From IMG/VR virus record IMGVR_UViG_3300035492_000206: a stretch of 64,000 nt of DNA; one strand, given 5' to 3'. Origin of the DNA: a virus. Position numbers and translations under genes: made by a program. Below, in pieces: positions 7,317 to 45,837 of the stretch (position 1 is its first letter; every line of letters starts with the position of its first letter). The notes under the pieces were generated by a model. It saw only the letters and a list, made by a program, of their open reading frames with translations, did not search any database and was not told where the DNA came from.

Positions 7317-7328
7317 GCGGCTTTAACC

Positions 7329-7369: not shown

Positions 7370-7431
7370 GTCTCCACCCGGCCGATTTGGTCGGCTCTAT
7401 TTCCCCAATTGAGATTACGGAGATACAACTC

Positions 7432-22286: not shown

Positions 22287-22292
22287 GGACGA

Positions 22293-23999
22293 ATGATGAA
22301 TCTTTTTTTCGATGCTACCGAAAGTAGCAAAGCTAAATCGACGCTTGCCAGGCTCCGCCTGGTCGGCGCTTTGGCCAAGGTACGCAAAGATATCCTGGCG
22401 CTGGGTGCGGGGGCTGGCAATATTGTCCAGCGCCTGCAACTGGCCAAAGAAGCCTTGAGCCTGCGTGAGCAGCTGGGCGAGCTTGATGCACCCAACGATG
22501 TTGAATCAGATAATGAACCCGACCGGGAAGCCATTCTGGGCGTATTCAGGCAGCTTGGGCGTGACTACCCAGATCGTAGTATGTCTGTTGCAGGGAATTT
22601 GGCGGGCAGCGTGGTGGCGCTGATCCGTGAGGCAGTAGGGCGCGAGGTCATGCCAGAGGAGCTGAGGCAACTGGTCAGCATGGAGGATCGACGCGCCGCC
22701 TATCGAGAAGGCCAGCGGTCTGTCGACCCTGTCGCAAGCGCCGTTGTTGCCATGCACGATGTGATTGAGGCACAGGCTGATGTCCCTGCTGCTGTCGTGC
22801 GCGACGATATCGGAGCGGTTGACTTTATCTGGGGCGAAGAGGGCAAGGAGCCGACTGCATCCGGTAAGCGCAAAGGTGCCAAGGGTGTGGCGCATATCCT
22901 TGAGGCACGAATGCGCAAGGATGGCCTGAGCCTGGAGGAGGCTGCCGCTGTGGCAGAGGAAGTGGCAAAAGTGGTCGCTACAGGCGAGATTACACTAACC
23001 CATCACCATCAAGATGTGAGCCAAGCTACCATTACAGACGGCAAGTACTCTGCAATCATGGTGAAGCGGGAAGGTAGTAATGCATGGCTGCTGACAGGGT
23101 GGGAAGAAAATAAGGATTCCGATGCCACTGGCAAGGGGGATGACAAAACCAGCGCTACGCACTCCGGGCCTACACCTGCCCGTCCCGGAGAGGGAGCGGA
23201 ACCCTCTGATATCAATATAGCACAATCTCAGGATGAAGGTCAGCCGACCGATGAAGGCAGTGCGTCTACAATAGCTGCCCACGGCCTCGCACTGGAGGTG
23301 CCGGCCATTGATCAGCAGCTGATAGATGATTACAACCGCACGACTCATGTATTTGGTGGCCGCGACTTCAATGCAGAACTCCGCAGCGAAGCGGAAAGCC
23401 TTTTGAATGAACTGGTCGAGCGAAACCACACGCTGGATACCCCGGAGCAGCAGGCACTGGCCAAAGAGCTGATCGAATCCTACCTGCAGGCCCAAGCGGA
23501 GTTCGCGCAGTGGAATGCGCGCTTCAGCACCAGTAACCCATCTTGGATTGTGACTGGCCGCAGTGGTCGCGACATGGGCAAGTACAATCGCGCCAATGAG
23601 CGGCACATGGATGAATACACCCGGCGCGTTGACCAGTTGCAGGCCCAGCGTGACCGCATAGGCGAAACGCTCTACAAGATGCGCCCCCAAGAGGTTCAGG
23701 TAGAACAAGCACTGGGCTCGGACTTGCGCGGCATTACCCAACAGGCCGGGCATATTCTGGGTTATTTGGAGGAGGGTAAAGCCGCGCTGGTTGCGGAAAC
23801 CCGCAAATGGGCCGCACCTAAAGCGCACAAGTTGATCGAGCGCAGCCTGACTGTCGACCGTAACCGCACCCTTGAGCATATCCGCGAGCTGGAAAACTCC
23901 AAGTCCGTACAGGATGCCGGTGGTTTGGCCAAGGTGTTCGGCCCTCGCTCAAAGGCAGGCAAGCTGGTGGAGACGCTTCTGAGTGAGCCTGACTCTTGA
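22293..23999 (+). CDS. Second polyvalent head-targeted protein with a BECR/barnase-colicin-like (PBECR) nuclease domain
   Basis: N-terminal LARLRLVGAL...RLQLAKEALSLREQLG leader. DIGAVDFIWG..KGVAHILEAR..SAIMVKREGSNAWLLTGW domain (~22780-23110). SWIVTGRSG..KYNRANERH segment typical of polyvalent proteins. Confidence 0.65.
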   Translation: MMNLFFDATESSKAKSTLARLRLVGALAKVRKDILALGAGAGNIVQRLQLAKEALSLREQLGELDAPNDVESDNEPDREAILGVFRQLGRDYPDRSMSVAGNLAGSVVALIREAVGREVMPEELRQLVSMEDRRAAYREGQRSVDPVASAVVAMHDVIEAQADVPAAVVRDDIGAVDFIWGEEGKEPTASGKRKGAKGVAHILEARMRKDGLSLEEAAAVAEEVAKVVATGEITLTHHHQDVSQATITDGKYSAIMVKREGSNAWLLTGWEENKDSDATGKGDDKTSATHSGPTPARPGEGAEPSDINIAQSQDEGQPTDEGSASTIAAHGLALEVPAIDQQLIDDYNRTTHVFGGRDFNAELRSEAESLLNELVERNHTLDTPEQQALAKELIESYLQAQAEFAQWNARFSTSNPSWIVTGRSGRDMGKYNRANERHMDEYTRRVDQLQAQRDRIGETLYKMRPQEVQVEQALGSDLRGITQQAGHILGYLEEGKAALVAETRKWAAPKAHKLIERSLTVDRNRTLEHIRELENSKSVQDAGGLAKVFGPRSKAGKLVETLLSEPDS

Positions 24000-24013
24000 T
24001 GATGCTAAAGGTA

Positions 24014-24045
24014 TCGAGTGACAGGCATGGTGTCCTGTCACTCGA
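24014..24045. terminator. 12-bp perfect hairpin between convergent genes
   Basis: TCGAGTGACAGG (24014-24025) / CCTGTCACTCGA (24034-24045). No T-tract on either side. Confidence 0.55.
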
Positions 24046-24061
24046 CCGGCTATAGGCGGGA

Positions 24062-27052
24062 TCAGAGTCTTACGCTTTTGGCGCGCCCAAAGCACTCATC
24101 AATCACGAATGTGACACCATCCTGGTCTCGCAGCGATATCTCCATGCTTGCGTGCTCATCCAGACCCATTTCTGCTGCAATCCTTGGCAGCTGATCAAGC
24201 GAAGGCGACAGCATATCCCAGCAGCCGACTTTGTCGTTGGGGCGAATCTCAACATCTTCCGTTACGTGCCATTCTGCCCAATCTCGCGCCAATCCCGATT
24301 CATTCAAGGCAGGTGAATGGATCTCGAAATACAGGTTCTGATGCCGGTCATACCGGGCGCGAAATCGCACTGTTGGTTGAGGATCGTGCCGAAGATTGAA
24401 ATCGATATAGTGACGACGCGTCAGCCATGCAAGTGCTGTCTTCGATGGGGCGCACCCTGTAATAACCTGCGCTTCAGCTTCAGCCAGCATGCGTTTGGCT
24501 TGATTCTGATCATCCTGCGCCAAAGCGCACATTGCACCATTGTGACCGAACACAAGCGTAGGCGTTATAACAAGTCCTGCCGCCTGCCAGCCGCTGGCAC
24601 CGGCTAGTAGTGCGGCCATTGATTGATCGTTGTGAGTGTATATATTCGCATTGCCCGGATACCTGAAGCAGTCAGCACACCCCTTCAATGATCGAAGATT
24701 ACGATCAAGGATGGCGATATTGGGTGCCTGGACATGCAGGCGTCGATGTCGATTGACGCGCCCCGCGATCTGCACAATGGATGCCGTTGAGGACGGCTCA
24801 ATCACAGACCAGTCAAAATCATGATCGCGACCGACTTCTTCCACTGGCGTAGCCACAACTACAAAGACCAGATCTTCTTCCGGAGCCTGTCGGATCATAT
24901 GATCAAGCTCTGCATCCTGAAAGATGTGTTCGTTCCCTCGCTTGCGGTTAAAAAGCCTGTCCAGTGCGCTTTCCTTCACCCATCGGCGCAACCGGAAATC
25001 CTCAGAATGGTAAGCCGACACCCGGTAGCCTGGCTCGCTCTGCAGCCGGGTAGCTATCTCTACGCAAGGTTCGATGTTGGCAACCCGGACAACGCCGAAA
25101 GAGACGCGCTTACCTGATGGGTGCAACCATGCATGATTGTGGTGCAGTTGTTGTATTGCGGCGCTGATCGAGTGTTGAAATCTATCAATTGGCGTTTCGC
25201 CTTCAGCAACGGTCTGTATGTACGCCAAGCGATAACAGGGTTCCTGGTGTAGGTGGTCGGCAAGCCCATCAAGCCACTGCGCAATGATTGGCTCAATCTC
25301 ATCCGAAGCCCCTGTATGGCTTGAGGGTGACTGGTAGTTGTCTACCAGTGTGATATGGCAGCCTACATGCGAGTGGTGATTGATGGCGCCATGCATGTGC
25401 GCACCGGCCTCAAATGCACGCACCACTGCAGCAGCACATCCCTGCGTGAGTGTCGCGCTGGAGACGATGACGTTACACCCAAGCAGGGCCGCCATTTCAA
25501 TCAGTCGCATCACCGCACCTAGGGATTGAGGGCTGTAATTATCAATTTCATCAAGAATCAAATCACTGCCTGCCACGCGCAGAGCCGCCGTTACATGATG
25601 GCCCTGGCGACCGGGGTTACCCGCATCAATCAGGTAGTCGAGTGTGGATACCAAAAGCGGGGTCCCGAGCAGGGCGCACGTTTTTTCTTCTGAACGGCAG
25701 CCGCCGTAGGTTTCAGCCCATTCACGCACCCACTTTGGGCAAGCAGGATCCACGTTGCCACCAATCTCCCAGATCGCGCGCCCATCAGCCGTGTCGGTTT
25801 CATCCTCATCCTCGTCCACAGCGCCAAGCTTTGCACGCGTGGTGTCGTGTGCCGCCTTCAGAAAGGCATCCCCCATTACGGTTGCTACTTGCTGCCTGGG
25901 CAGGCCAAGGTCTGCGCAAATCGCTTCACCCGTTTGCAGCGTAAGCGAGCGCAAGTTCAGGCCAATAGATATGCGTAACGGCGCTTCTGGTGCTGTCATT
26001 GCATCGGCTATCATCAGGTTGGCGCGCGTCTTCCCCGTGCCGGTGGACGCTGCGTTCAGTACAAGGCGGGGAGTGTTTCGCTGTTCGGGATGCTCATATT
26101 GCGAACGGATATGGTTGACCGCGTCCCGCTGCCAGGCAAAGCGAGATTCAGTACTGTCGCCATGTAGGCGTGCGCGCGCAGCGGTCGAAAGACCTGCAAG
26201 CCCTTCAATTTTGGCCAGCTTTTCTACCCAGCTGGCGGCTTCCTGACCAACGTGCTCAAGATGCCAGTCCAGCGGCTGATCAAGTTTACGCCCGACCCCG
26301 TTATTATTCGGTTTGGTGTTGGCATACAGGCGGTCACTCATGCTATCCACGATTAAGTCACCAGCCATTGAGCGGCTGGACACCTGATGATCTGCGGCAA
26401 TCAGAGCCATTCGGACTATCATGCCCAAACCCTTCCAGTAAGGCGCTTGCTGGTGTTCTTGCGCGGGCAGGTCCGCATCAATACGCTGAAGCACATCCCA
26501 GAGCGCGCTTTCAAGGCTTTCAGGGAAGCCCTGCGTATCGGACGGCATTTGCTTAAACGCATCGACTGGCTGATCGATGAATGGCCTGACATGCGTCTCC
26601 GCCATGGGAATGACCGATCTGTCTTTGTGGCTTGATCGCGCCGTTGGCCCCAACAAGCCGTGGTGTGTCATTACAGCAAAATCGACAACATCGTCAGCCT
26701 TGCATACGGGCGCGACAACAGTCTGCTTAATCATCCGATGGCCCTGCTGCAGGGGCTGCATAAATGCAGGTAGCCGCTCTATGCCATCATCCGCCATTAC
26801 GTGCCAAGCATCCTTCAATGTGGGCGGCGGGGCGGCATTGCCTGCATCGGCACTTTTCTGCCAGGCGCGCATCATGCCTCGCCATGTTTCCAGTACCCGC
26901 ACCGAGATCCACTCATGCCGGATTCGGTCACCACTCAATGCAGACTGCTGTCCACGCAGCTTTTCTTGGAAATGCACAGTGGCTTTCCCAATGTCATGGC
27001 TCAAGCCTGCCGCGCGAGCCAGGAGTGAGGCGAGGTTGGCCCAGCTATTCAT
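24062..27052 (-). CDS. cas3: Type I-F Cas3 HD-nuclease/helicase lacking the N-terminal Cas2 domain
   Basis: LSHDIGKA at residues 17-24, THHG, AADHQVS, ASTGTGKTRAN, LILDEIDNY, SSATL, VVATPVEEVGRDHDFDW and QIAGRVNRHR. Confidence 0.93.
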   Translation of the reverse strand: MNSWANLASLLARAAGLSHDIGKATVHFQEKLRGQQSALSGDRIRHEWISVRVLETWRGMMRAWQKSADAGNAAPPPTLKDAWHVMADDGIERLPAFMQPLQQGHRMIKQTVVAPVCKADDVVDFAVMTHHGLLGPTARSSHKDRSVIPMAETHVRPFIDQPVDAFKQMPSDTQGFPESLESALWDVLQRIDADLPAQEHQQAPYWKGLGMIVRMALIAADHQVSSRSMAGDLIVDSMSDRLYANTKPNNNGVGRKLDQPLDWHLEHVGQEAASWVEKLAKIEGLAGLSTAARARLHGDSTESRFAWQRDAVNHIRSQYEHPEQRNTPRLVLNAASTGTGKTRANLMIADAMTAPEAPLRISIGLNLRSLTLQTGEAICADLGLPRQQVATVMGDAFLKAAHDTTRAKLGAVDEDEDETDTADGRAIWEIGGNVDPACPKWVREWAETYGGCRSEEKTCALLGTPLLVSTLDYLIDAGNPGRQGHHVTAALRVAGSDLILDEIDNYSPQSLGAVMRLIEMAALLGCNVIVSSATLTQGCAAAVVRAFEAGAHMHGAINHHSHVGCHITLVDNYQSPSSHTGASDEIEPIIAQWLDGLADHLHQEPCYRLAYIQTVAEGETPIDRFQHSISAAIQQLHHNHAWLHPSGKRVSFGVVRVANIEPCVEIATRLQSEPGYRVSAYHSEDFRLRRWVKESALDRLFNRKRGNEHIFQDAELDHMIRQAPEEDLVFVVVATPVEEVGRDHDFDWSVIEPSSTASIVQIAGRVNRHRRLHVQAPNIAILDRNLRSLKGCADCFRYPGNANIYTHNDQSMAALLAGASGWQAAGLVITPTLVFGHNGAMCALAQDDQNQAKRMLAEAEAQVITGCAPSKTALAWLTRRHYIDFNLRHDPQPTVRFRARYDRHQNLYFEIHSPALNESGLARDWAEWHVTEDVEIRPNDKVGCWDMLSPSLDQLPRIAAEMGLDEHASMEISLRDQDGVTFVIDECFGRAKSVRL

Positions 27053-27942
27053 GACGTTATGGCCTCCATGCTCACAGCCACCGGATCAATGCAGTCAGAT
27101 GTGACCGCTTTGGGTTGCAGGTGGCGCTGCCGAAAATGGAATAGCGACGCATCATCCAACAGGATGCGGTTCTGGCTATCCAGGCCAAGCTCGCGGCGGG
27201 CAGCCAGTGACTGGTCAGGCGTCATCTTGGGGTTCAGTGAGACGACATACCAGCGGCCCGTCGCACGGCCAATGCCTGAATCTTTGATTGCGTCAATCTG
27301 CAGCTGAATGCTTGGCGTGATCGAGAGGGGGCGAAGTTCGAGCATGCGGAAAAGAACAAATTGCTTTAGAGGGGCGGTTAGTACGTCTTGAGCATCAAAT
27401 TCATCAAAGTCATACCCGGTTACTAGCAGTTGATCAGCAATGCGATGCAATGCGACCGGGTAGATGCATCGCCACCGCGCCTGATCATTCTTTTTCCTGC
27501 CTACATAGCGCACCGAGAAGGCTTTTTTGTGCACCATTGCGTGAAGCAGGGGGGTGTAATCGACCTCATCAGGGAGGCGCTGCGCCCGAATCTTGCCGTA
27601 CTGAACGCTGAGGCTTCCCACAACGCCTGGCGCATCATCAATATCAAGCCCAGCCTGCAGCCGTGTGATGGGGCTAAACAGGATCTCATTCAGGATGGAG
27701 TTGGCGCTGTTCGGGTCTCGTGTATCCAGGGCGACATAACTATGGGGCCGGTAGCAGCGTTTGTCCTGATAAATCAAGTTGCTGTAGGCCGAGCACATCT
27801 GATTGAGAAGGCGATACTTCGTTGCAGCCGAGCCCTCACTGATGCCGTCCAGATCACTTCGGCGGAACTGACCGGTGTGGATTGTCCGGCGCAAAACGTA
27901 GCGTTCGATCATGTCCTGTTGGTAGATAGTTGCAGATGACAA
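27049..27942 (-). CDS. WYL-domain transcriptional regulator (BrxR/CapW-like)
   Basis: LLHAMVHKKAFSVRYVG...RCIYPVALH...LLVTGYD...QFVLFRM is the WYL core. SLNPKMTPDQ..ARRELGL is a CapW-like C-terminus. TTG start with GAGGAG SD. ATGA-coupled to cas3. Confidence 0.75.
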   Translation of the reverse strand: MSSATIYQQDMIERYVLRRTIHTGQFRRSDLDGISEGSAATKYRLLNQMCSAYSNLIYQDKRCYRPHSYVALDTRDPNSANSILNEILFSPITRLQAGLDIDDAPGVVGSLSVQYGKIRAQRLPDEVDYTPLLHAMVHKKAFSVRYVGRKKNDQARWRCIYPVALHRIADQLLVTGYDFDEFDAQDVLTAPLKQFVLFRMLELRPLSITPSIQLQIDAIKDSGIGRATGRWYVVSLNPKMTPDQSLAARRELGLDSQNRILLDDASLFHFRQRHLQPKAVTSDCIDPVAVSMEAITS

Positions 27943-28017
27943 GTTCCAATCTCCTCAAAAAGATAATTCACTTAAAACCATAGAGTTAAATATATATCAA
28001 AATGAAAAATAAAAGAA

Positions 28018-28046
28018 TTGCCACAGGATGAAAATAACTCTAGTCT
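28018..28046 (+). promoter_or_regulatory. Putative sigma70 promoter of the csy operon in the AT-rich divergent spacer
   Basis: TTGCCA (28018-28023), 17 nt spacer, TAGTCT (28041-28046). Confidence 0.55.
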
Positions 28047-28111
28047 AGTGCTCATCGAACAAGCAACGGGAGGATGGCGCGGAGTCATGGACACCAGCGC
28101 CGGGCAAAAGA

Positions 28112-29239
28112 ATGAAAAACTCAGAGCAGCAAAGCGCGCTATCCAACTGGATACTGGACAACCTGGTGCATTTCTCGAACAAGCTCACAAACTCAAACGC
28201 ACCGGGGGGCGGTATTCGGCTGTCAGGCATACAGGCCCTTGACCTGCCTTACGTGAGTGCACGAACGCACCTGCACGACATCAACCGTAAAGCGACCGGG
28301 GCACTTATTGAGCTGGATTACGTAAAGCCCACAAATATCCGGATGAAGGATGTTCGGGTATGCCTGGGCGAGGAAGTCATCAACCCGCCAGAGCTTGATC
28401 TTGCTAAGGATCAGATGAGCGAAGTTGCCGGTGTGTACTTGGATGCAGCATCAGGCCGGCATCCCTGCAAAGTTGCCGACCCGAAGGCACAGACTTTGTC
28501 GCGGCTGAAGCAGATTCTATTGCCACTACCTGAGGATGAGGCTTATTTGGCGGTAAGCCCGCTCAGTGCAGCAGGCATGGCAAAGCTGCTCAATGACACC
28601 TACGCCGCGCGCTTCGACCAGAGCGAGCAGGGCGACAATGGAAAAGGCTTGATCCCCAGGGTGCGTTCATTTCCCTATGGCGGAGACAAGCCGCAGAACG
28701 TGGGCTCTCGCGTCAATGAAGGCTTGAGCCGTCCATTCGTGTTTGATCGCGTGCCCCGTGAAAATGATGACCTGAAATACGCGCATCGCCTGTTTTATCG
28801 TGGCCTAACCTTGCGACTGCCTAAAGCGCTAATCATGGACTACAAGTCATTCCTCGACAGCGTGCGCAGAGAAGGGCGCGACTTGAAGGTATGGCCTGCC
28901 TCGCTCAAGCGTGCAGAGCGTGCCTATCTGCAGCCTCTATGGGGGAGCTGGGAGAATCAGGCCAGAAAGGCTAGGCGCGTACTGGAAGAACACGCAGCTT
29001 CACTGCCGGATTCAAATCCCGCATGGCATGGCGAGACCGAAGAAGCCCGGTTTCAGGCTGGGTGGTTGATGCCTTCAGCGCGAGGGCATGAGTGGAAGAA
29101 ACAAGCAGCTCGCCGATTTGCCAGCCTGCTTTCAGCCAGTCGTGTCGCTGCCGGGCGTGACGGCGAGTCTGGACGGATCGCGTTGAGCCCTACCGATCAG
29201 CACCGCGTTGCCAGTGCAGTCCTGGAGGGCTTCAGATGA
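28112..29239 (+). CDS. csy1: Cas8f (Csy1), divergent
   Basis: KQILLPLPEDEAYLAVSPLSAAG and YGGDKPQNVG motifs. First gene of the csy operon. Confidence 0.82.
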   Translation: MKNSEQQSALSNWILDNLVHFSNKLTNSNAPGGGIRLSGIQALDLPYVSARTHLHDINRKATGALIELDYVKPTNIRMKDVRVCLGEEVINPPELDLAKDQMSEVAGVYLDAASGRHPCKVADPKAQTLSRLKQILLPLPEDEAYLAVSPLSAAGMAKLLNDTYAARFDQSEQGDNGKGLIPRVRSFPYGGDKPQNVGSRVNEGLSRPFVFDRVPRENDDLKYAHRLFYRGLTLRLPKALIMDYKSFLDSVRREGRDLKVWPASLKRAERAYLQPLWGSWENQARKARRVLEEHAASLPDSNPAWHGETEEARFQAGWLMPSARGHEWKKQAARRFASLLSASRVAAGRDGESGRIALSPTDQHRVASAVLEGFR

Positions 29240-30120
29240 ACAAGCGTTATCTATTGCTTCCACGACTGGATGTGCAGCGCGCAAACGCAATGGTGACTGC
29301 GGGTGTGATCTCACTATGTCCTGTCATGCCAGCAGTGCTCATGGGCGAGGCTTTCGGACATGCAACAGGTGCGTTCCCAGAAGGGGTGATGCTTGTCCAC
29401 CATGACGCTTACCTGCTGGCTGATCAAAGCCTTGACCAAGCCCGACCGGGTGGCACTGAGTACTATCCGCATCAATTCCGGGGCGCGACAGCGTTCAACG
29501 GTAAAGATATAGCGGGTGGTGACAAGAAAACACCATCCAACTCGATCCAGCCAACGGCCAGCATGAATGGCACCTGGTCAGTGATCATGTCATTCGACGC
29601 AGATCAGATTGATGCCGACAGTCTGCTGTCAGCCGCAACGCAATTTCTTGGACGTATGGCACGGCTTGCCGGTGGCGTGATTACACACTTTGAAAAGCCT
29701 CAGGTGCAAGATGATCTGGCGGGTATTCTTGCTGCATGCCGAAGTGGTTTTGTGGCTATCGACCGGTCGCCTTGGCTGGTATCGGACACACAGACGCGCA
29801 TCGAGCGTTTGCTGGCGCACACCGATGGAAGCGTTCAGCCCGAGCATCAGGGAAGGCGTCGCTGGCTGGTCCCGGCTGCTCTGGGGTATGCCCTGCTAAC
29901 AGATCCTGTCGATACGGCTGGCGCGCGTAATGGCTTGCCCCATGCGTTCGCAGAAGTGCTCCTGGGGTTGGTGGAGCTGGTCAGCATCCGGCAAACATCC
30001 GCTTTCCCCACGCAAAACGAAACACAGGATATAACACTGATTGAATCATGCTTTTGGCGGCAAAACTGGCCAACACAAGACGTTTTTTTATTGAATCAAG
30101 AGGAGCCCAGCAATGGCTAA
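29236..30120 (+). CDS. csy2: Cas5f (Csy2)
   Basis: LLLPRLDVQRANA, RLAGGVI, WLVPAALGYALL, RNGLPHAFAE.LLGLVE. Confidence 0.88.
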   Translation: MNKRYLLLPRLDVQRANAMVTAGVISLCPVMPAVLMGEAFGHATGAFPEGVMLVHHDAYLLADQSLDQARPGGTEYYPHQFRGATAFNGKDIAGGDKKTPSNSIQPTASMNGTWSVIMSFDADQIDADSLLSAATQFLGRMARLAGGVITHFEKPQVQDDLAGILAACRSGFVAIDRSPWLVSDTQTRIERLLAHTDGSVQPEHQGRRRWLVPAALGYALLTDPVDTAGARNGLPHAFAEVLLGLVELVSIRQTSAFPTQNETQDITLIESCFWRQNWPTQDVFLLNQEEPSNG

Positions 30121-31186
30121 AGTAATGGCAAAACTACCCGGTGTAACCAGCTTCACCCGTCGCAGTGTGATCAGCGATGGCGCATTTTACAGTCTTGTTG
30201 ACGGGGTTGAAGTACCCCTGCCGGTTGTGCGTCACGGAATTCGTGGCACTCAGAACATCAATAACACAAAGGAGCGCGAACCCTCGCAGATCCAGGTAAC
30301 TGAAACAGCGCGCACAGAAGTGAATGCCGACGCCTTCCTGGTGCGGTTCAATCTGCGCTTTCTGCCGCTACAAGAAGGCTTGCACGCGTGTGCGGTCAAT
30401 AAGCAGACCGACAAGGCGTTAACAGAGGCGCTGCGGGCGCAATACGAGGCATTCGTGAGCGCTGCCCGCAACAGTGATGGCTTGGCTGAGGTGTCTCTTC
30501 GCACCGCGCGGAATATCCTCAATGGTCGCTGGCTCTGGCGCAACCGTAGCCTGGGCGAAGCAATCGAGATCAGCGCCAGTACGCAGGACAAGCGCATAAA
30601 CATAGACGGGTTTGATGCGCTTGAGCTGCCGCTGAATGCCTTTGGCGATTACACCCGTGAAGAGCAGCAGCTGGGTGACTACATTCAGCACATGCTTCAG
30701 GGCGAAGCCACTGGCGGCATGACGATTGAAGCGCGCGTAAGCCTTGGGTTCACGGGATCGGTCGAAGTATTCCCCTCGCAGAACTATGTGTCCAAAAAGC
30801 CCAAAGGCTTTGCCCGGCCACTGTATAAGCTGGGAGTGGCCGACAAGTCGCGCACGTTTACTACCGCTGATGACATGCTGGATTACAGTGATATTCGGCG
30901 CATAGGGCAGGCTGCACTGCGTGACCAGAAGATTGGCAATGCGCTGCGCACCATTGATACCTGGTATCCAGACGCGCAGGCGCATGGCTATCGCCCGATT
31001 CCGGTTGAGCCAGAAGGTGCAAACTTGGACTCAATGTCCATGCTGCGCAAGCACAAAGGCGCAAACAGCCCGTCTGCATTTGCACTGGCAACGCGCATGG
31101 CCGAGCTTGACCCAAACAGCGCAGACGGCATGTTCCTGATCGCTGCCTTGATGCGTGGCGGCGTATATGGCGAAGCAGGCGAATAA
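30113..31186 (+). CDS. csy3: Cas7f (Csy3)
   Basis: VRHGIRGTQN, NILNGRWLWRN, EVFPSQ and QKIGNALRTIDTWY. Confidence 0.95.
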   Translation: MAKVMAKLPGVTSFTRRSVISDGAFYSLVDGVEVPLPVVRHGIRGTQNINNTKEREPSQIQVTETARTEVNADAFLVRFNLRFLPLQEGLHACAVNKQTDKALTEALRAQYEAFVSAARNSDGLAEVSLRTARNILNGRWLWRNRSLGEAIEISASTQDKRINIDGFDALELPLNAFGDYTREEQQLGDYIQHMLQGEATGGMTIEARVSLGFTGSVEVFPSQNYVSKKPKGFARPLYKLGVADKSRTFTTADDMLDYSDIRRIGQAALRDQKIGNALRTIDTWYPDAQAHGYRPIPVEPEGANLDSMSMLRKHKGANSPSAFALATRMAELDPNSADGMFLIAALMRGGVYGEAGE

Positions 31187-31216
31187 TGAGGCCCTTGAAA
31201 AGAACGGAGGAAGCCG

Positions 31217-31810
31217 GTGCCCAGCTGGCGTCGGCGACACATGATGAAGCACTACATGGATATTCGATTGATACCTTCCGCAGGCATGACGCCCCCAACA
31301 CTGGCGGCAGAGGTGGTCAAGAAAGTACATGCATGCCTTCAGGTACACCCTGGTGCCATCGCGCTCGCACTGCCTGAGTGCGCAGCCGGACCGGATCGCA
31401 AGATCGGCACGCTGGTCAGGTTATTTGCCACGGACGCAAGTCACTTGAATGCGACTGCAGACGAAATTGAGGCACATAAGGCAATCAGTGGCATGGCGGT
31501 TCCAACGCGTATCCGCGAAGTACCCGCCGAGACTACACGGTGGGTAGCATACACGCGTTTCAGGCTGCCAAATCGACGCCGACAGGCCAAAGACACCGAT
31601 GCCTTTGCAGTCAGGCGGCAGCAGCTACGCGCCGAGCGCATGGCGGTCATCGACACACTGCCCACGCTGTATATGTCATCTGCCACCAATGGGCATCGCT
31701 ATGGCATGGGTATTCAGGTGGTGGAGTGCGACCATGCGTCACCACAGGGCACTCTTAATGGTTACGGACTATCCAGTCAATCAAGCCCGTTCTGGCTACC
31801 GATGGTATGA
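31217..31810 (+). CDS. cas6f: Cas6f (Csy4) crRNA endonuclease
   Basis: HYMDIRL...VKKVH (catalytic His), Arg-rich helix, LYMSSATNGHRY and C-terminal GTLNGYGLS. Start is GTG 31217 or ATG 31241. Confidence 0.9.
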   Translation: MPSWRRRHMMKHYMDIRLIPSAGMTPPTLAAEVVKKVHACLQVHPGAIALALPECAAGPDRKIGTLVRLFATDASHLNATADEIEAHKAISGMAVPTRIREVPAETTRWVAYTRFRLPNRRRQAKDTDAFAVRRQQLRAERMAVIDTLPTLYMSSATNGHRYGMGIQVVECDHASPQGTLNGYGLSSQSSPFWLPMV

Positions 31811-31944
31811 CGTACCCAAAAAAAACGACCAAGGTGCAACTCAATGATATCAGTGCGTTTTTTCAGGGTGTGTTTTTTATGGGTAAATTGGCGGGAGGAC
31901 CGATTGCGCTTGTGTAATCACGGCCTTATAGTGAAATCGCTGTA
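31811..31944 (+). promoter_or_regulatory. CRISPR leader with its own sigma70 promoter
   Basis: A and T tracts as in I-F leaders. TTGCGC (31904-31909), 17 nt spacer, TATAGT (31927-31932), ending 12 nt before repeat 1. Confidence 0.7.
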
Positions 31945-32452
31945 CTTCACCGCCGTGTAGGCGGCTTAGAAATCGAAACCATGCGTCTGCGATCTCCTGC
32001 CGGTCTTCACCGCCGTGTAGGCGGCTTAGAAACCTGTCTGGCACCTTCTCGCTTGATTCAGCCCCTTCACCGCCGTGTAGGCGGCTTAGAAATGAGATGG
32101 GACACCCTCAAGGCGGGGCCTTACCTTCACCGCCGTGTAGGCGGCTTAGAAAATACGCGCCTGCGTCTCTGCGGCTTGCTCCAGCTTCACCGCCGTGTAG
32201 GCGGCTTAGAAAGTTCCAGCGTGGTTTCATCAAGCCGGACGTTCCTTCACCGCCGTGTAGGCGGCTTAGAAAAGCATCGATTTAGCACCGCTTCTTGCGG
32301 CATCCTTAACCGCCGTGTAGGCGGTTTAGAAATCGCAGAGCGCACGCAGGCTGTTGAGGCTTGCTTTCACCGCCGCGTAGGCGGTTTAGAAAAACGAGAA
32401 GGCCGAAGTGGGTATCAACCTGCACTTCACCGCCGCATAGGCGGATTACTTG
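31945..32452 (+). CRISPR. Type I-F CRISPR array: 9 repeats (28 bp, CTTCACCGCCGTGTAGGCGGCTTAGAAA) and 8 spacers of 32 bp
   Basis: Exact 60-bp period, repeats starting at 31945, 32005 ... 32425. Repeats 1-6 are identical and 7-9 progressively degenerate. CCGCC-GTGTA-GGCGG hairpin typical of Cas6f substrates. Confidence 0.98.
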
Positions 32453-32709
32453 CAGGTAGTTGAATGCAGGTCATGACTGGCCTGCATAGCCTGCCAGCTC
32501 TCGGGGGTTGTACCGGTCATGGCGGCAATGCTGCCCGCCAATCCGACATCGCACGGCACGTTACCGCCAATGAATGCTTGCAGGAGTGCAGCATCAACAG
32601 CCATCTGCCGGGATGCTTCGGTCAAGCTCAAGCCCAGCGGGTCGAGTACGTCAGCCTTGAGCGCAATGCCAGGATGAACCGGCTTGCGGGTACGAATGCG
32701 ATTATTCAT
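32446..32709 (-). CDS. higA: HigA-family HTH antitoxin (orphan)
   Basis: PVHPGIALKADVLDPLGLSLTEASRQM...GTTPESWQAMQASHDL is the HigA signature. Confidence 0.85.
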   Translation of the reverse strand: MNNRIRTRKPVHPGIALKADVLDPLGLSLTEASRQMAVDAALLQAFIGGNVPCDVGLAGSIAAMTGTTPESWQAMQASHDLHSTTCK

Positions 32710-32912
32710 ATTTCGAGATCCTTGAATAGCGCGTTGGCACTGTCAAACCGCTTCCCTATGCCGGATTCCAGCTCATCCATCGCGCAAACGGTGATTGCGG
32801 CTGGAGTCTGCGGAGTATCGGCTGAGAATGACCGGGACGGCTGGCGTTCACCACGGTGAATTTCGTCCATCCGCTGCACGCTTTCCATCAGGTCATCAAA
32901 AAAACGGCTCAT
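32706..32912 (-). CDS. Chimeric antitoxin-like peptide (HTH-antitoxin-type N-terminus, RelB/DinJ-type C-terminus)
   Basis: MSRFFDDLMESVQRMDEIHRGERQPSR joined to PAAITVCAMDELESGIGKRFDSANALFKDLEI. ATG at 32912, ATGA-coupled to higA. Confidence 0.55.
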   Translation of the reverse strand: MSRFFDDLMESVQRMDEIHRGERQPSRSFSADTPQTPAAITVCAMDELESGIGKRFDSANALFKDLEI

Positions 32913-32946
32913 GGCAGTTAGCTCTTTTGCGATCGTATGAAGCCAT

Positions 32947-32975
32947 AGTGTATGCACCAGGCGAGAAACAGGCAA
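32947..32975 (-). promoter_or_regulatory. Sigma70 promoter of the antitoxin pair
   Basis: TTGCCT (32975-32970), 17 nt spacer, TACACT (32952-32947). Confidence 0.65.
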
Positions 32976-33011
32976 TGGGACGATTTGCACCCCTGATCTG
33001 GTTTGTTAACC

Positions 33012-33052
33012 GGAAACTCCCCACCTTCAAAGCCATGGCGCTGGCGCACAAT
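33012..33052 (+). promoter_or_regulatory. Putative phage late promoter (GGAAA-N30-CACAAT) for the portal operon
   Basis: GGAAA at 33012, CACAAT at 33047. Confidence 0.65.
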
Positions 33053-33059
33053 CAGCGTC

Positions 33060-34601
33060 ATGGCTACCAAATCCAAAACGCAGCGACGCGGCATATTCTC
33101 CTCTCTGTTCGGCGGCAATACCAAAGCTTACACAGACGAGACAGCGTCAGCGAGCGACATTAAACAGTCGGATACCACCCTATACGGCGCGGGCATGACC
33201 ACGGTCGCCAGTTTGATGGCGTCCGGAAATCGCAAGGCTCGCACCCGTCAAGCCATCTATGACCAATGGTCGATGATGGAGGCGAACCCGATTGTATCCA
33301 CGTCCGTTCAACTGCTGGTGACAGCTGCGCTGGGCGGGCATGAGACCAACGGTAGCCTGGTGTTCATCGAGGAGCGGCCCGGATTCAACGACGATCAGAA
33401 AATGTCGGATTTGGTGCGTGAAGTGCGGGACGACCTTTCCGATCTGTTCAATGCAGTGGCGTTTCAGGTGGCGTATCTTGGGGCTAACTTTGGCGATGCC
33501 TACGCGCGCGTTTACAGCGAAGACAAAAAGGGTGTTGTCGACCTGTACGTGGGTGAAATGATCCGTCCGCCGCTGGTGCAGCCATTCGAGCGCGGCTCCC
33601 GCACGGTGGGCTTTGCGGTCTACACCGGTGAGAAGAACTTTCAGCGCCTCGATAAAACCCAGATGGTGCGCATGAAGATGCCGCGCACGCAATGGATTCC
33701 CCAGCACGGCGTGGTCGAAAAGTCGCTGAAACTTGCGCTTGAAGAGGACAATATCGACAACCTGCCGCTTATGCCCGCCATGGCCGGCGGTTCGCTGCTT
33801 TATGCTGCCGAAGAGCCCTATAACAACCTGGTGTCGAGCCTGCTGGGGCTGGTGGGCCAGCGCTGGATGGACTCCATCGATGAGCAGATGCTTACTGTCA
33901 ACCTGAATGACATGAGCAAGGCGCACCAGAAAAAGTTCATCGAATCGATCACGGCAATGCTCAAGCGCTCGAAAGAAGTGGCTGAGGATGCGGTTAAGGG
34001 TGGACGCCCAATCCTGGAGCGCATTCGGCACGTCATCCCTGTGTTCGGTGACAAGCAGCTCACGACTATTCAGGCGCCCAACGGTGGCCAACCGGGCCGC
34101 GCGGCCAATATCGGCATCGAAGACATCATGCTGCATGCGCGATTGCTGGCCGGTGCGCTGGGTGTCGATCTATCCATGGTCGGCTTTGCTGATCAGATGA
34201 GCGGCGGCTTGGGGGAGGGCGGCTTCTTCCGTACCAGTGCCCAAGTGGCTGAGCGCGCGCGCGTCATCCGCGTAGCCCTGTCCGAATTCTTCAATCACGT
34301 CATCGACATTCACACGCTGAAGAAATACGGCGTTGTGATCCCTGCATCCGAGCGGCCTTGGCAGATCAATTTCTTCGGCTCCATATCGGCGCTTGAGGCC
34401 GAGAAGCAGCGCACCCGCTCCGAAGGCATGAGTGTGGGCTTGATGCTGATTCAGGCCATTCAGCAGCTCAAGGATATGGGTGTCAGTGAGGAGATGGCAG
34501 CCAACTACCTGACTGACCTGATGCAGCTGGATGAAGAGCAGGCCAAGCTGTATGCAAAAACCGTTGCGGCACCGAAGGATGACGATGATGGGTATGTTTG
34601 A
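33060..34601 (+). CDS. Portal protein, P1 Prt-like
   Basis: GIEDIMLHARLLAGALGVDLSMVGFADQMSGGLGEGGFFRT matches the P1 Prt motif as I recall it. ATG at 33060. Confidence 0.85.
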   Translation: MATKSKTQRRGIFSSLFGGNTKAYTDETASASDIKQSDTTLYGAGMTTVASLMASGNRKARTRQAIYDQWSMMEANPIVSTSVQLLVTAALGGHETNGSLVFIEERPGFNDDQKMSDLVREVRDDLSDLFNAVAFQVAYLGANFGDAYARVYSEDKKGVVDLYVGEMIRPPLVQPFERGSRTVGFAVYTGEKNFQRLDKTQMVRMKMPRTQWIPQHGVVEKSLKLALEEDNIDNLPLMPAMAGGSLLYAAEEPYNNLVSSLLGLVGQRWMDSIDEQMLTVNLNDMSKAHQKKFIESITAMLKRSKEVAEDAVKGGRPILERIRHVIPVFGDKQLTTIQAPNGGQPGRAANIGIEDIMLHARLLAGALGVDLSMVGFADQMSGGLGEGGFFRTSAQVAERARVIRVALSEFFNHVIDIHTLKKYGVVIPASERPWQINFFGSISALEAEKQRTRSEGMSVGLMLIQAIQQLKDMGVSEEMAANYLTDLMQLDEEQAKLYAKTVAAPKDDDDGYV

Positions 34602-45236: not shown

Positions 45237-45258
45237 TCTTAGCGCTTTGCGCTTTGCT

Positions 45259-45280
45259 GGGGTGGGCGATAGCCCGCCCC
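45259..45280 (+). promoter_or_regulatory. DGR target-recognition hairpin with GRNA loop
   Basis: GGGGTGGGC-GATA-GCCCGCCCC, 34 nt downstream of the VR. Confidence 0.75.
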
Positions 45281-45312
45281 TATGCTTTTCAAACTTGCAG
45301 TAAGGGCATCCA

Positions 45313-45795: not shown

Positions 45796-45837
45796 TAGAA
45801 GTTTTGGTACAGTGTTGGCGGGCTTCATGTCAAAGAG

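What the first reader, a model, noticed from the sequence alone, without database searches (positions are those of the whole stretch)
24062..32452. Phage-encoded, interference-only type I-F CRISPR-Cas inserted in the virion morphogenesis region
Seen: intact cas3, csy1-3, cas6f and an 8-spacer array between the dar-like genes and the portal, with no cas1, no cas2 and no Tn7 genes. Known: ICP1's I-F system includes cas1 and cas2-3, and transposon I-F3 systems lack cas3. Phage systems without adaptation genes are reported, so the class is not new. The specific combination of Cas2-less Cas3, WYL regulator and temperate P1-like carrier appears unusual. Inference: a weapon for phage-phage competition or lysogen defence.
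Basis: partly seen in the sequence, partly recalled or inferred. Interest (0 to 1): 0.88.

Follow-up and report, generated by a model that had tools for sequence, protein, structure and literature searches.

The report
Phage CRISPR aimed at sibling phages
[quoted passage not shown] It sits where sibling phages carry the anti-restriction gene darB, and its spacers match that gene and its flanks in those siblings, so it looks like a weapon in phage-against-phage competition.

Summary
Window 24062-32452 holds cas3f (no Cas2 domain), a co-transcribed CapW/BrxR-type WYL regulator, a divergent csy1-csy2-csy3-cas6f operon, a 134-nt leader, and an array of nine 28-nt repeats with eight 32-nt spacers. 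Tblastn and profile searches found no Cas1 or Cas2 domain anywhere in the 64 kb.

The carrier is a temperate P1-like myovirus with an integrase, P1-type portal and Pmg homologues, and a DarA homologue. A near-identical sibling from IMG/VR (G004, 67 kb, 83-97% nt identity) has no CRISPR-Cas. At the same slot it has a 2161-aa DarB-like gene. The swapped segment is window 22489-33007.

Window spacers W8 and W6 match darB and its 5' end in that sibling. Spacers G4 and G5 of a second CRISPR-bearing lineage (G001) match darB and the portal. All four protospacers carry the I-F 5'-CC PAM (p about 2e-5). At the two sites where the carrier has a homologous sequence, its own PAM and seed are changed.

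G001 differs from the window by a swap of the cas6f-leader-proximal-array cassette, which suggests that spacers are renewed by recombination. The class (phage CRISPR without adaptation genes, targeting other phages) is known. This architecture and its targeting of the alternative cassette at its own locus are a new variant.

The parts
22293..23999 (+). 568-aa PBECR1-domain (barnase/EndoU/colicin-like nuclease) polyvalent protein. Its first 66 aa are shared with the sibling's DarB-like protein. The left edge of the swapped segment lies at about 22489.
   Evidence: Pfam PF18809, E 8e-14. The first 66 aa are 85% identical to the N-terminus of the 2161-aa DarB-like protein of G004. Nucleotide homology to G004 ends at 22489.
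22314..22345 (-). The carrier's own site homologous to the W6 protospacer. It has diverged: PAM CA instead of CC, and 8 mismatches including seed position 4.
24062..27052 (-). cas3f, HD nuclease plus SF2 helicase, without the Cas2 domain that defines I-F Cas2-3.
   Evidence: TIGR02562, E 8e-162, profile positions 104-914. The alignment to P. aeruginosa Cas2/3 (5B7I) starts at its residue 119. The HD motifs, helicase motif I (GTGKT), motif II (DEID) and motif VI are kept.
27049..27942 (-). wHTH-WYL-WCX transcription regulator of the CapW/BrxR family. Its stop overlaps the cas3 start (ATGA).
   Evidence: Pfam WYL hit is weak (E 0.001), but 34 of 41 distant homologues hit WYL. AF2 pLDDT is 89. 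Foldseek matches CapW 9c5g at E 5e-11 and BrxR 7qfz/7t8k. The overlap was read.
27943..28111 (.). AT-rich divergent intergenic region between the regulator-cas3 operon and the csy operon. It contains the inverted repeat TAGAGTTA/TAACTCTA (27981-27988 and 28035-28042), a candidate operator.
   Evidence: The sigma-70 consensus scan found no promoter here.
28112..29239 (+). Divergent cas8f (csy1), 375 aa, with a predicted C-terminal helical bundle.
   Evidence: Pfam Csy1, E 0.002, below the cut-off. Three of 5 clade members hit Csy1. The AF2 model is poor (pLDDT 52) except for helices 219-373. The six best Foldseek hits are all Csy1 chains, at E 0.015-0.3.
29236..30120 (+). cas5f (csy2).
   Evidence: PF09614, 35.7 bits, above the cut-off of 25.
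30113..31186 (+). cas7f (csy3). The recombination breakpoint relative to lineage G001 lies at about 30900.
   Evidence: TIGR02566, 226 bits. Identity profile.
31217..31810 (+). cas6f (csy4). The probable start is the ATG at 31241/31244 (MKHYMD...), and His29 is present.
   Evidence: TIGR02563, 55 bits, above the cut-off. Sequence read.
31811..31944 (+). CRISPR leader.
31945..32452 (+). CRISPR array: nine 28-nt repeats (CTTCACCGCCGTGTAGGCGGCTTAGAAA) and eight 32-nt spacers, W1-W8.
32153..32184 (+). Spacer W4, shared with G001 (G8) except at positions 12 and 24. It is homologous to the gene upstream of terL in sibling G004; the match, 24/32, is to the G001 version (G8).
32273..32304 (+). Spacer W6. 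Its protospacer is in the 5' end of darB of sibling G004: 28/32, PAM CC, mismatches at 6, 15, 21, 30.
32393..32424 (+). Spacer W8, the oldest, identical to G10 of G001. Its protospacer is helicase motif V (NEKAEVGINL) of darB-like genes of P1-like phages.
   Evidence: G004 matches 31/32 and G003 31/32, each with PAM CC. G002 and G005 match 30/32 with PAM CC. Rb1 matches 28/32 with PAM CC. P1 darB matches 28/32.
32446..32709 (-). HigA-family HTH antitoxin-like gene, part of the swapped segment.
   Evidence: TIGR02607, E 1e-13, above the cut-off. It is 87% identical to its G001 copy, against 69% for the overlapping plus-strand frame.
32706..32990 (-). 94-aa ORF of no known family, coupled to the HigA-like gene by a 4-nt overlap. 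It may be its toxin partner.
33003..34601 (+). Portal gene and right edge of the swapped segment. Homology to G004 resumes at 33007. At 33192-33223 it holds the site matching G001 spacer G5 31/32, with PAM CG and a mismatch at seed position 3.
   Evidence: phrog_1497, E 4e-168..

Best explanation
**What it is.** This is a working, interference-only type I-F CRISPR-Cas module carried as an accessory cassette by a temperate P1-like phage. It is used against closely related phages.

**Proposed mechanism.**
- Cas6f cuts the array transcript into crRNAs.
- Cas8f, Cas5f, Cas7f and Cas6f assemble the Csy surveillance complex.
- The complex binds DNA that carries a 5'-CC PAM and a matching protospacer.
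- The stand-alone Cas3f (HD nuclease plus helicase, no Cas2 domain) is recruited and degrades that DNA.

**Targets.**
- The cassette (window 22489-33007) occupies the slot between the large ejected polyvalent protein and the portal. Sibling phages carry the anti-restriction gene darB in that slot.
- The traceable spacers hit darB and its immediate flanks in those siblings.
- The carrier therefore spares itself. It lacks darB, and its copies of the flanking targets have a changed PAM and seed.
- A lysogen, or a co-infecting carrier, would destroy incoming darB-type siblings.

**Regulation.** The CapW/BrxR-type WYL repressor, co-transcribed with cas3, probably keeps the module low until a DNA-damage or ssDNA cue.

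**Spacer renewal.** With no Cas1 or Cas2, new spacers are most likely gained by recombination with other I-F arrays. Use of a host Cas1-Cas2/3 in trans is also possible.

**Shown versus inferred.** Shown: the gene content, intact motifs, absence of Cas1/Cas2 from the window, the locus swap, the protospacers with their PAMs, and the cassette exchange between lineages. Inferred: expression, interference activity, the regulator's cue, and the route of spacer gain.
For: **Anatomy and intact catalytic motifs.**

**No Cas1 or Cas2.**

**Conservation.**
- The same PBECR1 | cas3-WYL | csy layout occurs in a second lineage whose Cas3 is only 64% identical (L004).
- A third lineage, at 44% Cas3 identity, also has WYL followed by a Cas2-less cas3 (L011).
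- This argues for conservation rather than decay.

**Sibling G004.**
- It is collinear with the window at 83-97% nt identity, except that window 22489-33007 corresponds to G004 8057-1363.
- That G004 segment holds a 2161-aa DarB-like gene sharing its first 66 aa with the window's PBECR1 protein.
- None of the five darB-type relatives has Csy3.
- The window has no DarB homologue.

**Protospacers in G004, all with PAM CC**:
- W8: 31/32, with the only mismatch at position 12.
- W6: 28/32.
- G4: 29/33.
- G5: 29/32.
- CC frequency is 0.07, so four of four gives p about 2e-5.
- Shuffled spacer sets give 0.1 hits against 11 observed.
- W8 also matches four further IMG/VR phages and phage Rb1, with a CC PAM in four of these five.

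**Self-avoidance.**
- The carrier's G5 site reads GCG GGC where the sibling reads GCC GGG. These are synonymous changes that hit exactly PAM position -1 and seed position +3.
- The carrier's W6 site has PAM CA and a seed mismatch.

**Array turnover without Cas1.**
- The window and G001 are about 100% identical from 22030 to 30900. Identity then falls to 57-78% through cas6f, the leader and the proximal array.
- Cas6f is 69% identical between the two.
- G001's five leader-proximal repeats are a variant identical to many chromosomal I-F arrays.

**Regulator fold.**

**Literature.**
- CapW and BrxR are repressors of defence operons. CapW is released by ssDNA (PMC11662680).
- BrxR-family genes lie next to CRISPR-Cas in 21 of 210 cases (PMC9122601).
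Against: - There are no expression or activity data.
- Five of the eight window spacers (W1, W2, W3, W5, W7) have no match in GenBank phages, PLSDB plasmids or the fetched siblings. W1-W3 were also scanned against IMG/VR without result. Other targets, such as a host element, remain possible.
- Cas8f is very divergent and its model is poor.
- The Cas3f score is just under the NCBIfam cut-off (540 against 566 bits), as expected for a missing domain.
- The consensus scan found no sigma-70 promoter in the divergent intergenic region.
- In ICP1, the only studied phage I-F system, Cas1 is needed to link Cas2/3 to the Csy complex (bioRxiv 10.1101/2024.03.09.584257). A Cas1-less I-F system cannot simply be assumed to interfere. 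However, ICP1 lacks the Cas8f helical bundle, which seems present here.
- About 9 kb of the phage, and the host, are unseen.
- The sibling genomes come from other metagenomes, so co-occurrence in one host is not shown.
Confidence: 0.75

Rival explanations
1. The module is a decaying remnant. A complete I-F system captured by the phage has lost cas1 and the Cas2 domain, is on its way to being lost entirely, and no longer interferes.
For: - The adaptation genes are gone.
- The arrays are short, with 8-10 spacers. Relatives that have cas1 carry at least 17 to 54 spacers in three of four cases, and 4 in the fourth.
- The trailer repeats are mutated.
- Most spacers have no known target.
Against: - All six ORFs are open, and the catalytic motifs of Cas3 and Cas6f are intact.
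- The same Cas2-less architecture persists in lineages at 64% and 44% Cas3 identity.
- Loss of Cas2 recurs on the tree next to intact fusions.
- Protospacers in siblings keep the CC PAM, and the carrier's own copies are changed at the PAM and seed. That pattern is expected only if targeting matters.
Confidence: 0.08
2. The module is a counter-defence weapon of the ICP1 kind. Its main targets would be host-encoded anti-phage elements (satellites, defence islands) rather than other phages, and the matches to siblings would be secondary.
For: - ICP1 is the one studied precedent for a phage I-F system (PMC11656645).
- Five of 8 window spacers and five of 10 G001 spacers are unassigned.
- The cassette lies among anti-restriction-type cargo.
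Against: - Every spacer that could be traced (W4, W6, W8, G2, G4, G5) points to genes of P1-like phages.
- No spacer matched any of the 100 bacterial genome loci fetched.
- The carrier is temperate, whereas ICP1 is lytic.
Confidence: 0.1
3. The system is not really adaptation-deficient. cas1 (and cas2) would lie in the unseen part of the phage, or the array is routinely extended by the host's own I-F Cas1-Cas2/3, so it behaves as a complete adaptive system.
For: - G001's proximal repeats are identical to those of many chromosomal I-F arrays.
- The two lineages have different leader-end spacers.
- The protospacers cluster within 7 kb of the sibling genome, as primed acquisition would give.
- W4 and G8 differ only at positions 12 and 24, which fits a second acquisition from a variant target.
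Against: - Nothing resembling Cas1 or Cas2 occurs in 64 kb. The corresponding unseen segment of sibling G004 has none either.
- The difference between the lineages is a block exchange that also replaces cas6f and the leader. That is recombination, not stepwise acquisition.
- The window's exact repeat was found in none of the 100 genome loci returned by the repeat scan. In the metagenome collection it occurred only in a twin of G001.
Confidence: 0.2

Closest known systems
Vibrio phage ICP1 type I-F CRISPR-Cas (Seed et al. 2013; PMC11656645, PMC10161043)
   Same: A phage-borne I-F system with csy1-4, a Cas3 nuclease-helicase and its own array. It is used offensively and sits in an accessory locus that other strains fill with a different gene.
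   Different: - ICP1 is lytic, has cas1 and a Cas2-3 fusion, acquires spacers, and targets a host satellite (PLE).
- Its short Cas8f needs Cas1 to recruit Cas2/3 (10.1101/2024.03.09.584257).
- Here there is no Cas1 and no Cas2 domain, a WYL regulator is present, the carrier is temperate, and the targets are sibling phages.
- Csy3 is only 28-30% identical.
Acinetobacter baumannii I-Fa CRISPR-Cas on a putative virus at the ssrA hotspot, targeting prophage DgiS1 (bioRxiv 10.1101/2023.09.20.558655)
   Same: An I-F system on a temperate element whose spacers target a rival prophage competing for the same site. The rival escapes through PAM mutations.
   Different: - There the contested site is a host integration site. 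Here it is a locus inside the sibling phage genomes themselves.
- Whether that system has adaptation genes or a WYL gene was not checked here; only the paper's outline was read.
Virus-borne CRISPR mini-arrays and adaptation-less CRISPR-Cas of phages and jumbo phages (reviewed in PMC11656645; PMC7145637)
   Same: Phage loci usually lack adaptation genes, and their spacers mostly match related viruses, giving inter-virus exclusion. Their repeats can match host arrays.
   Different: - Mini-arrays depend on the host's Cas proteins. This phage brings the whole interference machinery in a genome of about 70 kb.
- Surveys found CRISPR-Cas almost absent from phages and prophages of ordinary size (PMC7145637).
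Canonical chromosomal I-F1 (P. aeruginosa, Pectobacterium)
   Same: Csy complex genes, 28-nt hairpin repeat, 32-nt spacers, 5'-CC PAM, and Cas3f HD and helicase motifs.
   Different: - The canonical gene order is cas1, cas2-3, csy1-4.
- This clade has cas3 divergent from csy1-4, with cas1 (where present) after cas6f.
- Here cas1 and the Cas2 domain are absent.
Tn7-associated I-F3 (CAST)
   Same: An I-F derivative without adaptation genes, carried on a mobile element.
   Different: CASTs lack Cas3 and carry tnsABC and tniQ. Here Cas3 is present and intact, and the neighbouring genes are phage structural genes.
CapW / BrxR wHTH-WYL-WCX repressors (PMC9122588, PMC9122601, PMC11662680)
   Same: The same three-domain fold, and placement at the head of a defence operon.
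   Different: Sequence identity to the solved proteins is 13-20%. It is found here on a phage, co-transcribed with cas3. Its ligand and operator are untested.

Membership tests
Type I-F CRISPR-Cas | Cas7f (Csy3) backbone protein | tested here: met
   TIGR02566, 226 bits against a cut-off of 157.6. PF09615, E 2e-56.
Type I-F CRISPR-Cas | Cas6f (Csy4) endoribonuclease with catalytic His29 | tested here: met
   TIGR02563, 55.3 bits against a cut-off of 36.3. His is at position 29 counted from the MKHYMD start.
Type I-F CRISPR-Cas | Cas5f (Csy2) | tested here: met
   PF09614, 35.7 bits against a cut-off of 25. It falls below the NCBIfam equivalog cut-off.
Type I-F CRISPR-Cas | Cas8f (Csy1) large subunit | tested here: inconclusive
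   PF09611, 17.8 bits against a cut-off of 22.7. A profile search of PDB sequences found nothing. The AF2 model has pLDDT 52. The top six Foldseek hits are Csy1 chains, but only at E 0.015-0.3. Gene position and size fit.
Type I-F CRISPR-Cas | Cas2-Cas3 fusion protein (the subtype's signature gene) | tested here: not met
   The Cas3f core is present (TIGR02562, E 8e-162), but the match starts at profile position 104. The Cas2 domain is found nowhere in the window.
Type I-F CRISPR-Cas | Cas1 integrase | tested here: not met
   No hit in the 64 kb with tblastn or with a Cas1f HMM. About 9 kb of the phage is unseen.
Type I-F CRISPR-Cas | 28-nt repeat with a 3' hairpin ending in ...AGAAA, and 32-nt spacers | tested here: met
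Type I-F CRISPR-Cas | 5'-CC PAM on the protospacer strand | tested here: met
   All four distinct protospacers in G004 have CC. W8 also has CC in G002, G003, G005 and Rb1.
I-F3 / CRISPR-associated transposon | Absence of Cas3, and presence of tnsA/B/C and tniQ | tested here: not met
   Cas3 is present and intact. The flanking genes are phage virion genes. No HMM search for Tns proteins was run.
I-F2 | No Cas8f; only Cas5fv, Cas7fv and Cas6f | tested here: not met
   There are four csy-position genes, including a 375-aa gene in the csy1 position.
CapW/BrxR wHTH-WYL-WCX regulators | Three-domain fold: winged HTH, WYL, WCX | tested here: met
   AF2 pLDDT 89.4. Foldseek matches 9c5g at E 5e-11, and 7tb6, 7qfz and 7t8k over about 275-290 columns. 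WYL Pfam hits occur in 34 of 41 homologues.
CapW/BrxR wHTH-WYL-WCX regulators | Represses the adjacent defence operon, with release by ssDNA or a related ligand | not testable with these tools
   Only a candidate inverted repeat in the intergenic region.
P1-like (Punavirus-related) temperate myoviruses | P1-type portal, Pmg head-morphogenesis genes, and Dar (DarA/DarB) ejected-protein system | tested here: met
   - Portal 28% identical to P1 Prt and 61% to phage Rb1.
- PmgG-like and PmgB-like PHROG hits.
- DarA-N homologue at 16885-17358.
- DarB is present in siblings but not in the window.
P1-like (Punavirus-related) temperate myoviruses | Plasmid prophage (RepA/ParAB, Cre-lox) | not tested
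   A tyrosine integrase with an arm-binding domain lies at 49652-50920. Partition and replication genes were not searched.

The most novel reading that the evidence does not exclude
The cassette may behave as a selfish allele-killer, or even a natural CRISPR gene drive, among sibling phages.

- It sits at the same locus as darB and is flanked on both sides by sequence shared with darB-type siblings: the first 66 codons of the cassette's first gene, and the portal.
- Its spacers cut darB and both flanks.
- In a mixed infection, or on superinfection of a lysogen, the sibling genome would be cut at that locus.
- The cut could be repaired only from the CRISPR-bearing genome, possibly helped by the phage's own RecT and PD-(D/E)XK recombination genes at 60364-62285. 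Repair would convert darB alleles into CRISPR alleles.

The evidence does not exclude this. However, processive degradation by Cas3 may simply destroy the rival instead.
Probability: 0.15. Interest if true: 0.9.

Novelty: new variant of a known kind. Interest (0 to 1): 0.72.

Why it matters
- **Rarity.** Surveys found CRISPR-Cas almost absent from phages and prophages of ordinary size. Only ICP1 has been studied experimentally.
- **A clean natural example.** This is a roughly 70-kb temperate phage carrying a full interference machine with no adaptation genes. Carrier and victim are both in hand as near-identical genomes that differ by one cassette.
- **Directly testable questions.**
  - Can an I-F Cas3 work without its Cas2 domain and without Cas1?
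  - How do adaptation-less arrays renew their spacers? The evidence here points to exchange of the cas6f-leader-array cassette.
  - Do phages use CRISPR to police an accessory locus, here CRISPR against DarB?
- **A possible tool.** A compact I-F effector set with a stand-alone Cas3 and a built-in repressor may also be useful in engineering.

Tried and rejected
**Searches that found nothing or little**
- Megablast of the locus against GenBank phages found nothing. Against PLSDB plasmids it found one short portal match, in an Ideonella megaplasmid.
- The window's own assembly is not held, so neither the rest of the genome nor the host could be searched.
- IMG/VR pattern scans for W1, W2, W3 and W4, with N at every sixth position, found no target.
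- The predicted ideal G5 target (CC + GGGATGACC...) had no exact IMG/VR match. The looser BLAST and exhaustive scan then found it in G004 with three distal mismatches.
- The single metagenome scan, with the window's exact repeat, returned only a twin of G001.
- The genome-collection scan with a degenerate repeat returned 100 loci from many Beta- and Gammaproteobacteria. This gave no host assignment and no shared spacer.
- A portal search in 401 sampled Burkholderiales genomes found one distant homologue at 65% identity.
- Context look-ups for two Cas2-less Cas3f proteins from NCBI genomes (P0007, P0012) found no record.
- A word-based homology search for the WYL protein found only 3 proteins. 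The full HMMER profile search was needed to reach 68.
- The Cas8f fold prediction was of low confidence, and the PDB sequence profile search was empty.
- The peptide-level spacer search was mostly noise apart from W8 and G5.

**Hypotheses rejected**
- CAST or I-F3: Cas3 is present.
- I-F2: there are four csy genes.
- That G001's variant cassette came from a canonical chromosomal system: its Cas6f is only 25-27% identical to chromosomal Cas6f, but 52% identical to that of a clade member.
- That the 297-aa ORF is a displaced Cas2: it is a conserved separate gene that is also present next to intact Cas2-3 fusions.

Full report
**1. What is in the window**

- On the minus strand lie a 996-aa ORF (24062-27052) and a 297-aa ORF (27049-27942). 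The stop of the 297-aa ORF overlaps the start of the 996-aa ORF by four bases.
- Divergent from them, across a 169-nt AT-rich spacer, are four plus-strand ORFs with overlapping or closely spaced stops and starts: 28112-29239, 29236-30120, 30113-31186 and 31217-31810.
- A 134-nt leader follows. After it comes an array of nine 28-nt repeats at exact 60-nt spacing, which gives eight 32-nt spacers.
- The last repeat is degenerate at its 3' end and repeats 7-8 carry point changes. The leader is therefore on the cas6f side.

Family searches identify most of the genes:
- Cas7f, Cas6f and Cas5f all score above curated cut-offs.
- Cas3f matches at E 8e-162.
- The first csy gene is a very divergent Cas8f. 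Its Pfam hit is below the cut-off, only the C-terminal helices 219-373 of the AF2 model are confident, and the six best Foldseek hits are all Csy1 chains at weak E-values.

**2. Interference genes intact, adaptation genes absent**

- The Cas3f match to the I-F Cas2-3 model covers profile positions 104-914.
- The alignment to P. aeruginosa Cas2/3 (5B7I) starts at residue 119 of that protein. It keeps the HD motifs, helicase motif I (GTGKT), motif II (DEID) and motif VI.
- Homology to the closest Cas2-3 fusions begins at their residue 100, which aligns with Met1 here.
- Cas6f has His29.
- tblastn with two close Cas1f proteins and two Cas2 domains found nothing in the whole 64 kb. HMMs built from 15 Cas1f proteins and 106 Cas2 domains also found nothing, and the positive control worked.
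- The array follows cas6f directly and the portal gene comes 550 nt later. There is no room for cas1 at the position where relatives have it.

**3. The 297-aa gene is a CapW/BrxR-type WYL regulator**

- On its own it hits Pfam WYL only weakly.
- A profile search found 68 distant relatives of similar length, and 34 of 41 of them hit WYL.
- The AF2 model (pLDDT 89) matches CapW and BrxR over nearly its full length, at E 5e-11 to 1e-7.
- These proteins repress defence operons, and CapW is released by ssDNA (PMC9122588, PMC11662680).
- BrxR-family genes next to CRISPR-Cas are already recorded in 21 of 210 cases (PMC9122601). The association itself is therefore not new.
- The intergenic region holds an inverted repeat, TAGAGTTA/TAACTCTA, that could be the operator. 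The consensus scan found no sigma-70 promoter there.

**4. The carrier**

- The window encodes a terminase, sheath, baseplate, tape measure, PmgG- and PmgB-like head proteins, a DarA-N homologue and a large polyvalent 'internal head' protein.
- It also encodes a tyrosine integrase, RecT with a PD-(D/E)XK nuclease, RdgC and Dam.
- The portal is 61% identical to that of the temperate 91-kb Xanthomonas phage Rb1 and 28% identical to P1 Prt.
- 'Temperate P1-like' is therefore fair.
- Rb1 has no CRISPR-Cas.
- Among 50,697 GenBank phage records, Csy3 homologues occur only in ICP1-like Vibrio phages and one Acinetobacter phage, at 28-30% identity.

**5. Relatives of the system**

Cas3f homologues form a well-supported 15-member clade (SH-aLRT 99) containing the window's protein. 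Cas2-less forms are interleaved there with normal fusions:

| Member | Cas3 identity to window | Cas2 domain | Context |
|---|---|---|---|
| Window, with its sister P0002 | 64% (P0002) | absent | P0002's contig L004 has the same PBECR1 / cas3-WYL / csy layout |
| P0003 (L007) | 51% | present | WYL gene, Cas2-3 fusion, cas1 after cas6f, array of at least 18 repeats |
| P0005 (L011) | 44% | absent | WYL gene followed by Cas2-less cas3 |

- The Cas2 domain, and cas1 where this can be seen, have thus been lost more than once in this clade.
- More distant relatives sit in Mu-like prophages such as that of Rhodocyclus tenuis. They have cas2-3, csy1-3, cas6f, cas1 and long arrays, but no WYL gene.

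**6. The cassette replaces darB**

- IMG/VR record G004 (67,001 bp, with a terminal repeat) is collinear with the window at 83-97% nucleotide identity. The one exception is that window 22489-33007 corresponds to G004 8057-1363.
- In G004 that segment is a 2161-aa DarB-like methylase/helicase gene plus two small ORFs. It lies between the polyvalent protein (about 89% identical over its aligned parts to the window's) and the portal (95% identical).
- The first 66 residues of DarB and of the window's PBECR1 protein are 85% identical. This looks like a shared N-terminal module on alternative effector bodies.
- Relative L123 has the order polyvalent protein, M12B peptidase, DarB, portal. Rb1 has the first three in the same order.
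- The window has no DarB homologue. None of the five darB-type relatives has Csy3.
- If G004 is complete, the carrier is about 70 kb long and the window misses about 9 kb. The corresponding part of G004 has no Cas1 or Cas2.

**7. What the spacers hit**

The oldest spacer, W8, is identical in the second CRISPR-bearing lineage, G001. It reads in frame as NEKAEVGINL, which is helicase motif V of DarB.

| Target | W8 match | PAM | Mismatched positions |
|---|---|---|---|
| G004 darB | 31/32 | CC | 12 |
| G003 darB | 31/32 | CC | 21 |
| G002 darB | 30/32 | CC | 6, 15 |
| G005 darB | 30/32 | CC | 15, 21 |
| G006 darB | 29/32 | CG | 12, 15, 21 |
| Rb1 darB-like gene | 28/32 | CC | 6, 15, 21, 27 |
| P1 darB | 28/32 | not CC | not listed |

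From my own knowledge of type I-F and I-E complexes, every sixth guide position is flipped out and does not pair. The G004 match would then be effectively perfect.

Other spacers also hit G004:
- W6 matches the antisense strand of the first codons of G004 darB: 28/32, PAM CC, with mismatches at 6, 15, 21 and 30.
- G001 spacer G4 matches G004 darB: 29/33, PAM CC.
- G001 spacer G5 matches the G004 portal: 29/32, PAM CC, seed intact.
- W4/G8 and G2 match, at coding-homology level only, the gene just upstream of terL.

Significance:
- An exhaustive ungapped scan gave 11 hits. Shuffled spacers gave 0.1.
- CC has a frequency of 0.07 in G004, so four of four distinct protospacers with CC gives p about 2e-5.
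- All four protospacers lie within G004 positions 1147-8232. That is the alternative cassette and its two flanks.

**8. Self-avoidance**

- Where the carrier has a homologous copy of a target, it differs at the positions that matter.
- The G5 site in the window and in G001 is 31/32 identical to the spacer. It reads GCG GGC where the sibling reads GCC GGG. These two synonymous changes remove the PAM and break seed position 3.
- The carrier's W6 site has PAM CA and eight mismatches, including seed position 4.
- W8 and G4 have no counterpart in the carrier, because darB is absent.

**9. How the array changes without Cas1**

- The window and G001 (seen twice, in two assemblies) are essentially 100% identical from 22030 to about 30900. 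Identity then falls abruptly to 57-78% through the end of csy3, cas6f, the leader and the array, and recovers after it.
- Cas6f is 69% identical between them, against 99.7% for Cas3, the regulator, Csy1 and Csy2.
- G001's array has five leader-proximal repeats of a different variant, followed by window-type repeats. It shares only W4 (as G8) and W8 (as G10) with the window.
- This is a cassette exchange by recombination.
- G001's Cas6f belongs to the same phage-associated clade: 52% identical to L007's, but 25-27% to chromosomal Cas6f. The donor was therefore another member of this clade.
- Even so, the variant repeat is letter-for-letter the repeat of large chromosomal I-F arrays in many genomes. 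Host adaptation or crRNA sharing in trans is conceivable.
- W4 and G8 differ only at positions 12 and 24. Both are sixth positions (chance about 0.02), and both changes are synonymous in the reverse frame. This fits either selection to keep targeting or a second acquisition from a variant target, and I cannot tell which.

**10. Comparison with what is known, and verdict**

- Phage loci without adaptation genes whose spacers match other phages are a described class (PMC7145637, PMC11656645). An A. baumannii I-F element that targets a prophage competing for the same integration site is a close conceptual precedent (10.1101/2023.09.20.558655).
- CRISPR-Cas is nevertheless very rare in phages and prophages of ordinary size (PMC7145637).
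- In ICP1, the only studied phage I-F system, Cas1 is part of the interference step (10.1101/2024.03.09.584257).
- Several features look new:
  - an I-F module with a stand-alone Cas3f, no Cas1 and a WYL repressor;
  - carriage in the virion-gene region of a P1-like temperate phage;
  - replacement of darB, with spacers aimed at darB and its flanks in siblings;
  - renewal by cassette swapping.
- I rate it a new variant of a known kind, of good interest, mainly because carrier and target genomes are both available and the predictions are directly testable.
- Function (expression, interference, regulation) is inferred, not shown.

Noticed in passing
window 44184-47299: A complete diversity-generating retroelement.
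- The target gene is 44184-45236 (weak FGE-sulfatase/C-type-lectin-like hit), with the variable repeat at 45110-45227.
- bAvd lies at 45313-45795, the template repeat at 45838-45955, and the reverse transcriptase at 46073-47299.
- Thirteen of the 14 TR/VR differences are at template adenines.
- The region has a GC dip to 0.47 at 46-47 kb.
   Followed up: yes
window 32446-32990 (minus strand): A HigA-family antitoxin-like gene (TIGR02607, E 1e-13) is preceded by a coupled 94-aa ORF of no known family. The pair is wedged between the array trailer and the portal, and the HigA stop codon lies inside the last degenerate repeat. It is present in G001 but absent from the darB-type siblings. It may be a toxin-antitoxin pair or a regulator travelling with the CRISPR cassette.
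   Followed up: partly
window 22293-22490 and G004 8253-8056: The first 66 residues are shared (85%) between the PBECR1 nuclease-domain protein of the carrier and the DarB-like protein of the sibling. This looks like a common N-terminal module, perhaps a capsid-targeting signal as in P1 Dar proteins, fused to alternative effector bodies.
   Followed up: partly
L003/L001 (G001) array, spacer G5, and window 33192-33223: A CRISPR-bearing phage carries a spacer that matches its own portal gene 31/32. It is spared only by a PAM change (CC to CG) and a mismatch at seed position 3, both synonymous. The window lacks this spacer but has the same 'escape' allele.
   Followed up: yes
L009 = L012, L013-L015 (Rhodocyclus tenuis and IMG/VR contigs): Complete I-F systems (cas2-3 divergent from csy1-3, cas6f, cas1; arrays of up to at least 55 repeats) lie next to Mu-like tail and baseplate genes on contigs that IMG/VR calls viral. 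A whole branch of I-F seems to be associated with prophages.
   Followed up: partly
window 55369-56007 (minus strand): A protein with the N-terminal domain of dATP/dGTP diphosphohydrolases (PF18909, E 4e-33), next to an HNH endonuclease (54082-55227) and RdgC. Such enzymes occur in phages that modify their DNA bases. No partner genes were looked for.
   Followed up: no
window 18204-22286: A 1360-aa polyvalent protein made of shuffled blocks. Pieces match Rb1's 'internal head protein' in a different order, and it is about 89% identical over its aligned parts to the G004 homologue. It has PHROG hits to DarB-like, minor head and 'released upon infection' families.
   Followed up: partly
L007:3068-3187: In the cas1-bearing relative, two adjacent spacers are identical (a 60-nt unit repeated exactly). 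This is a duplication within an array that is otherwise unique.
   Followed up: no
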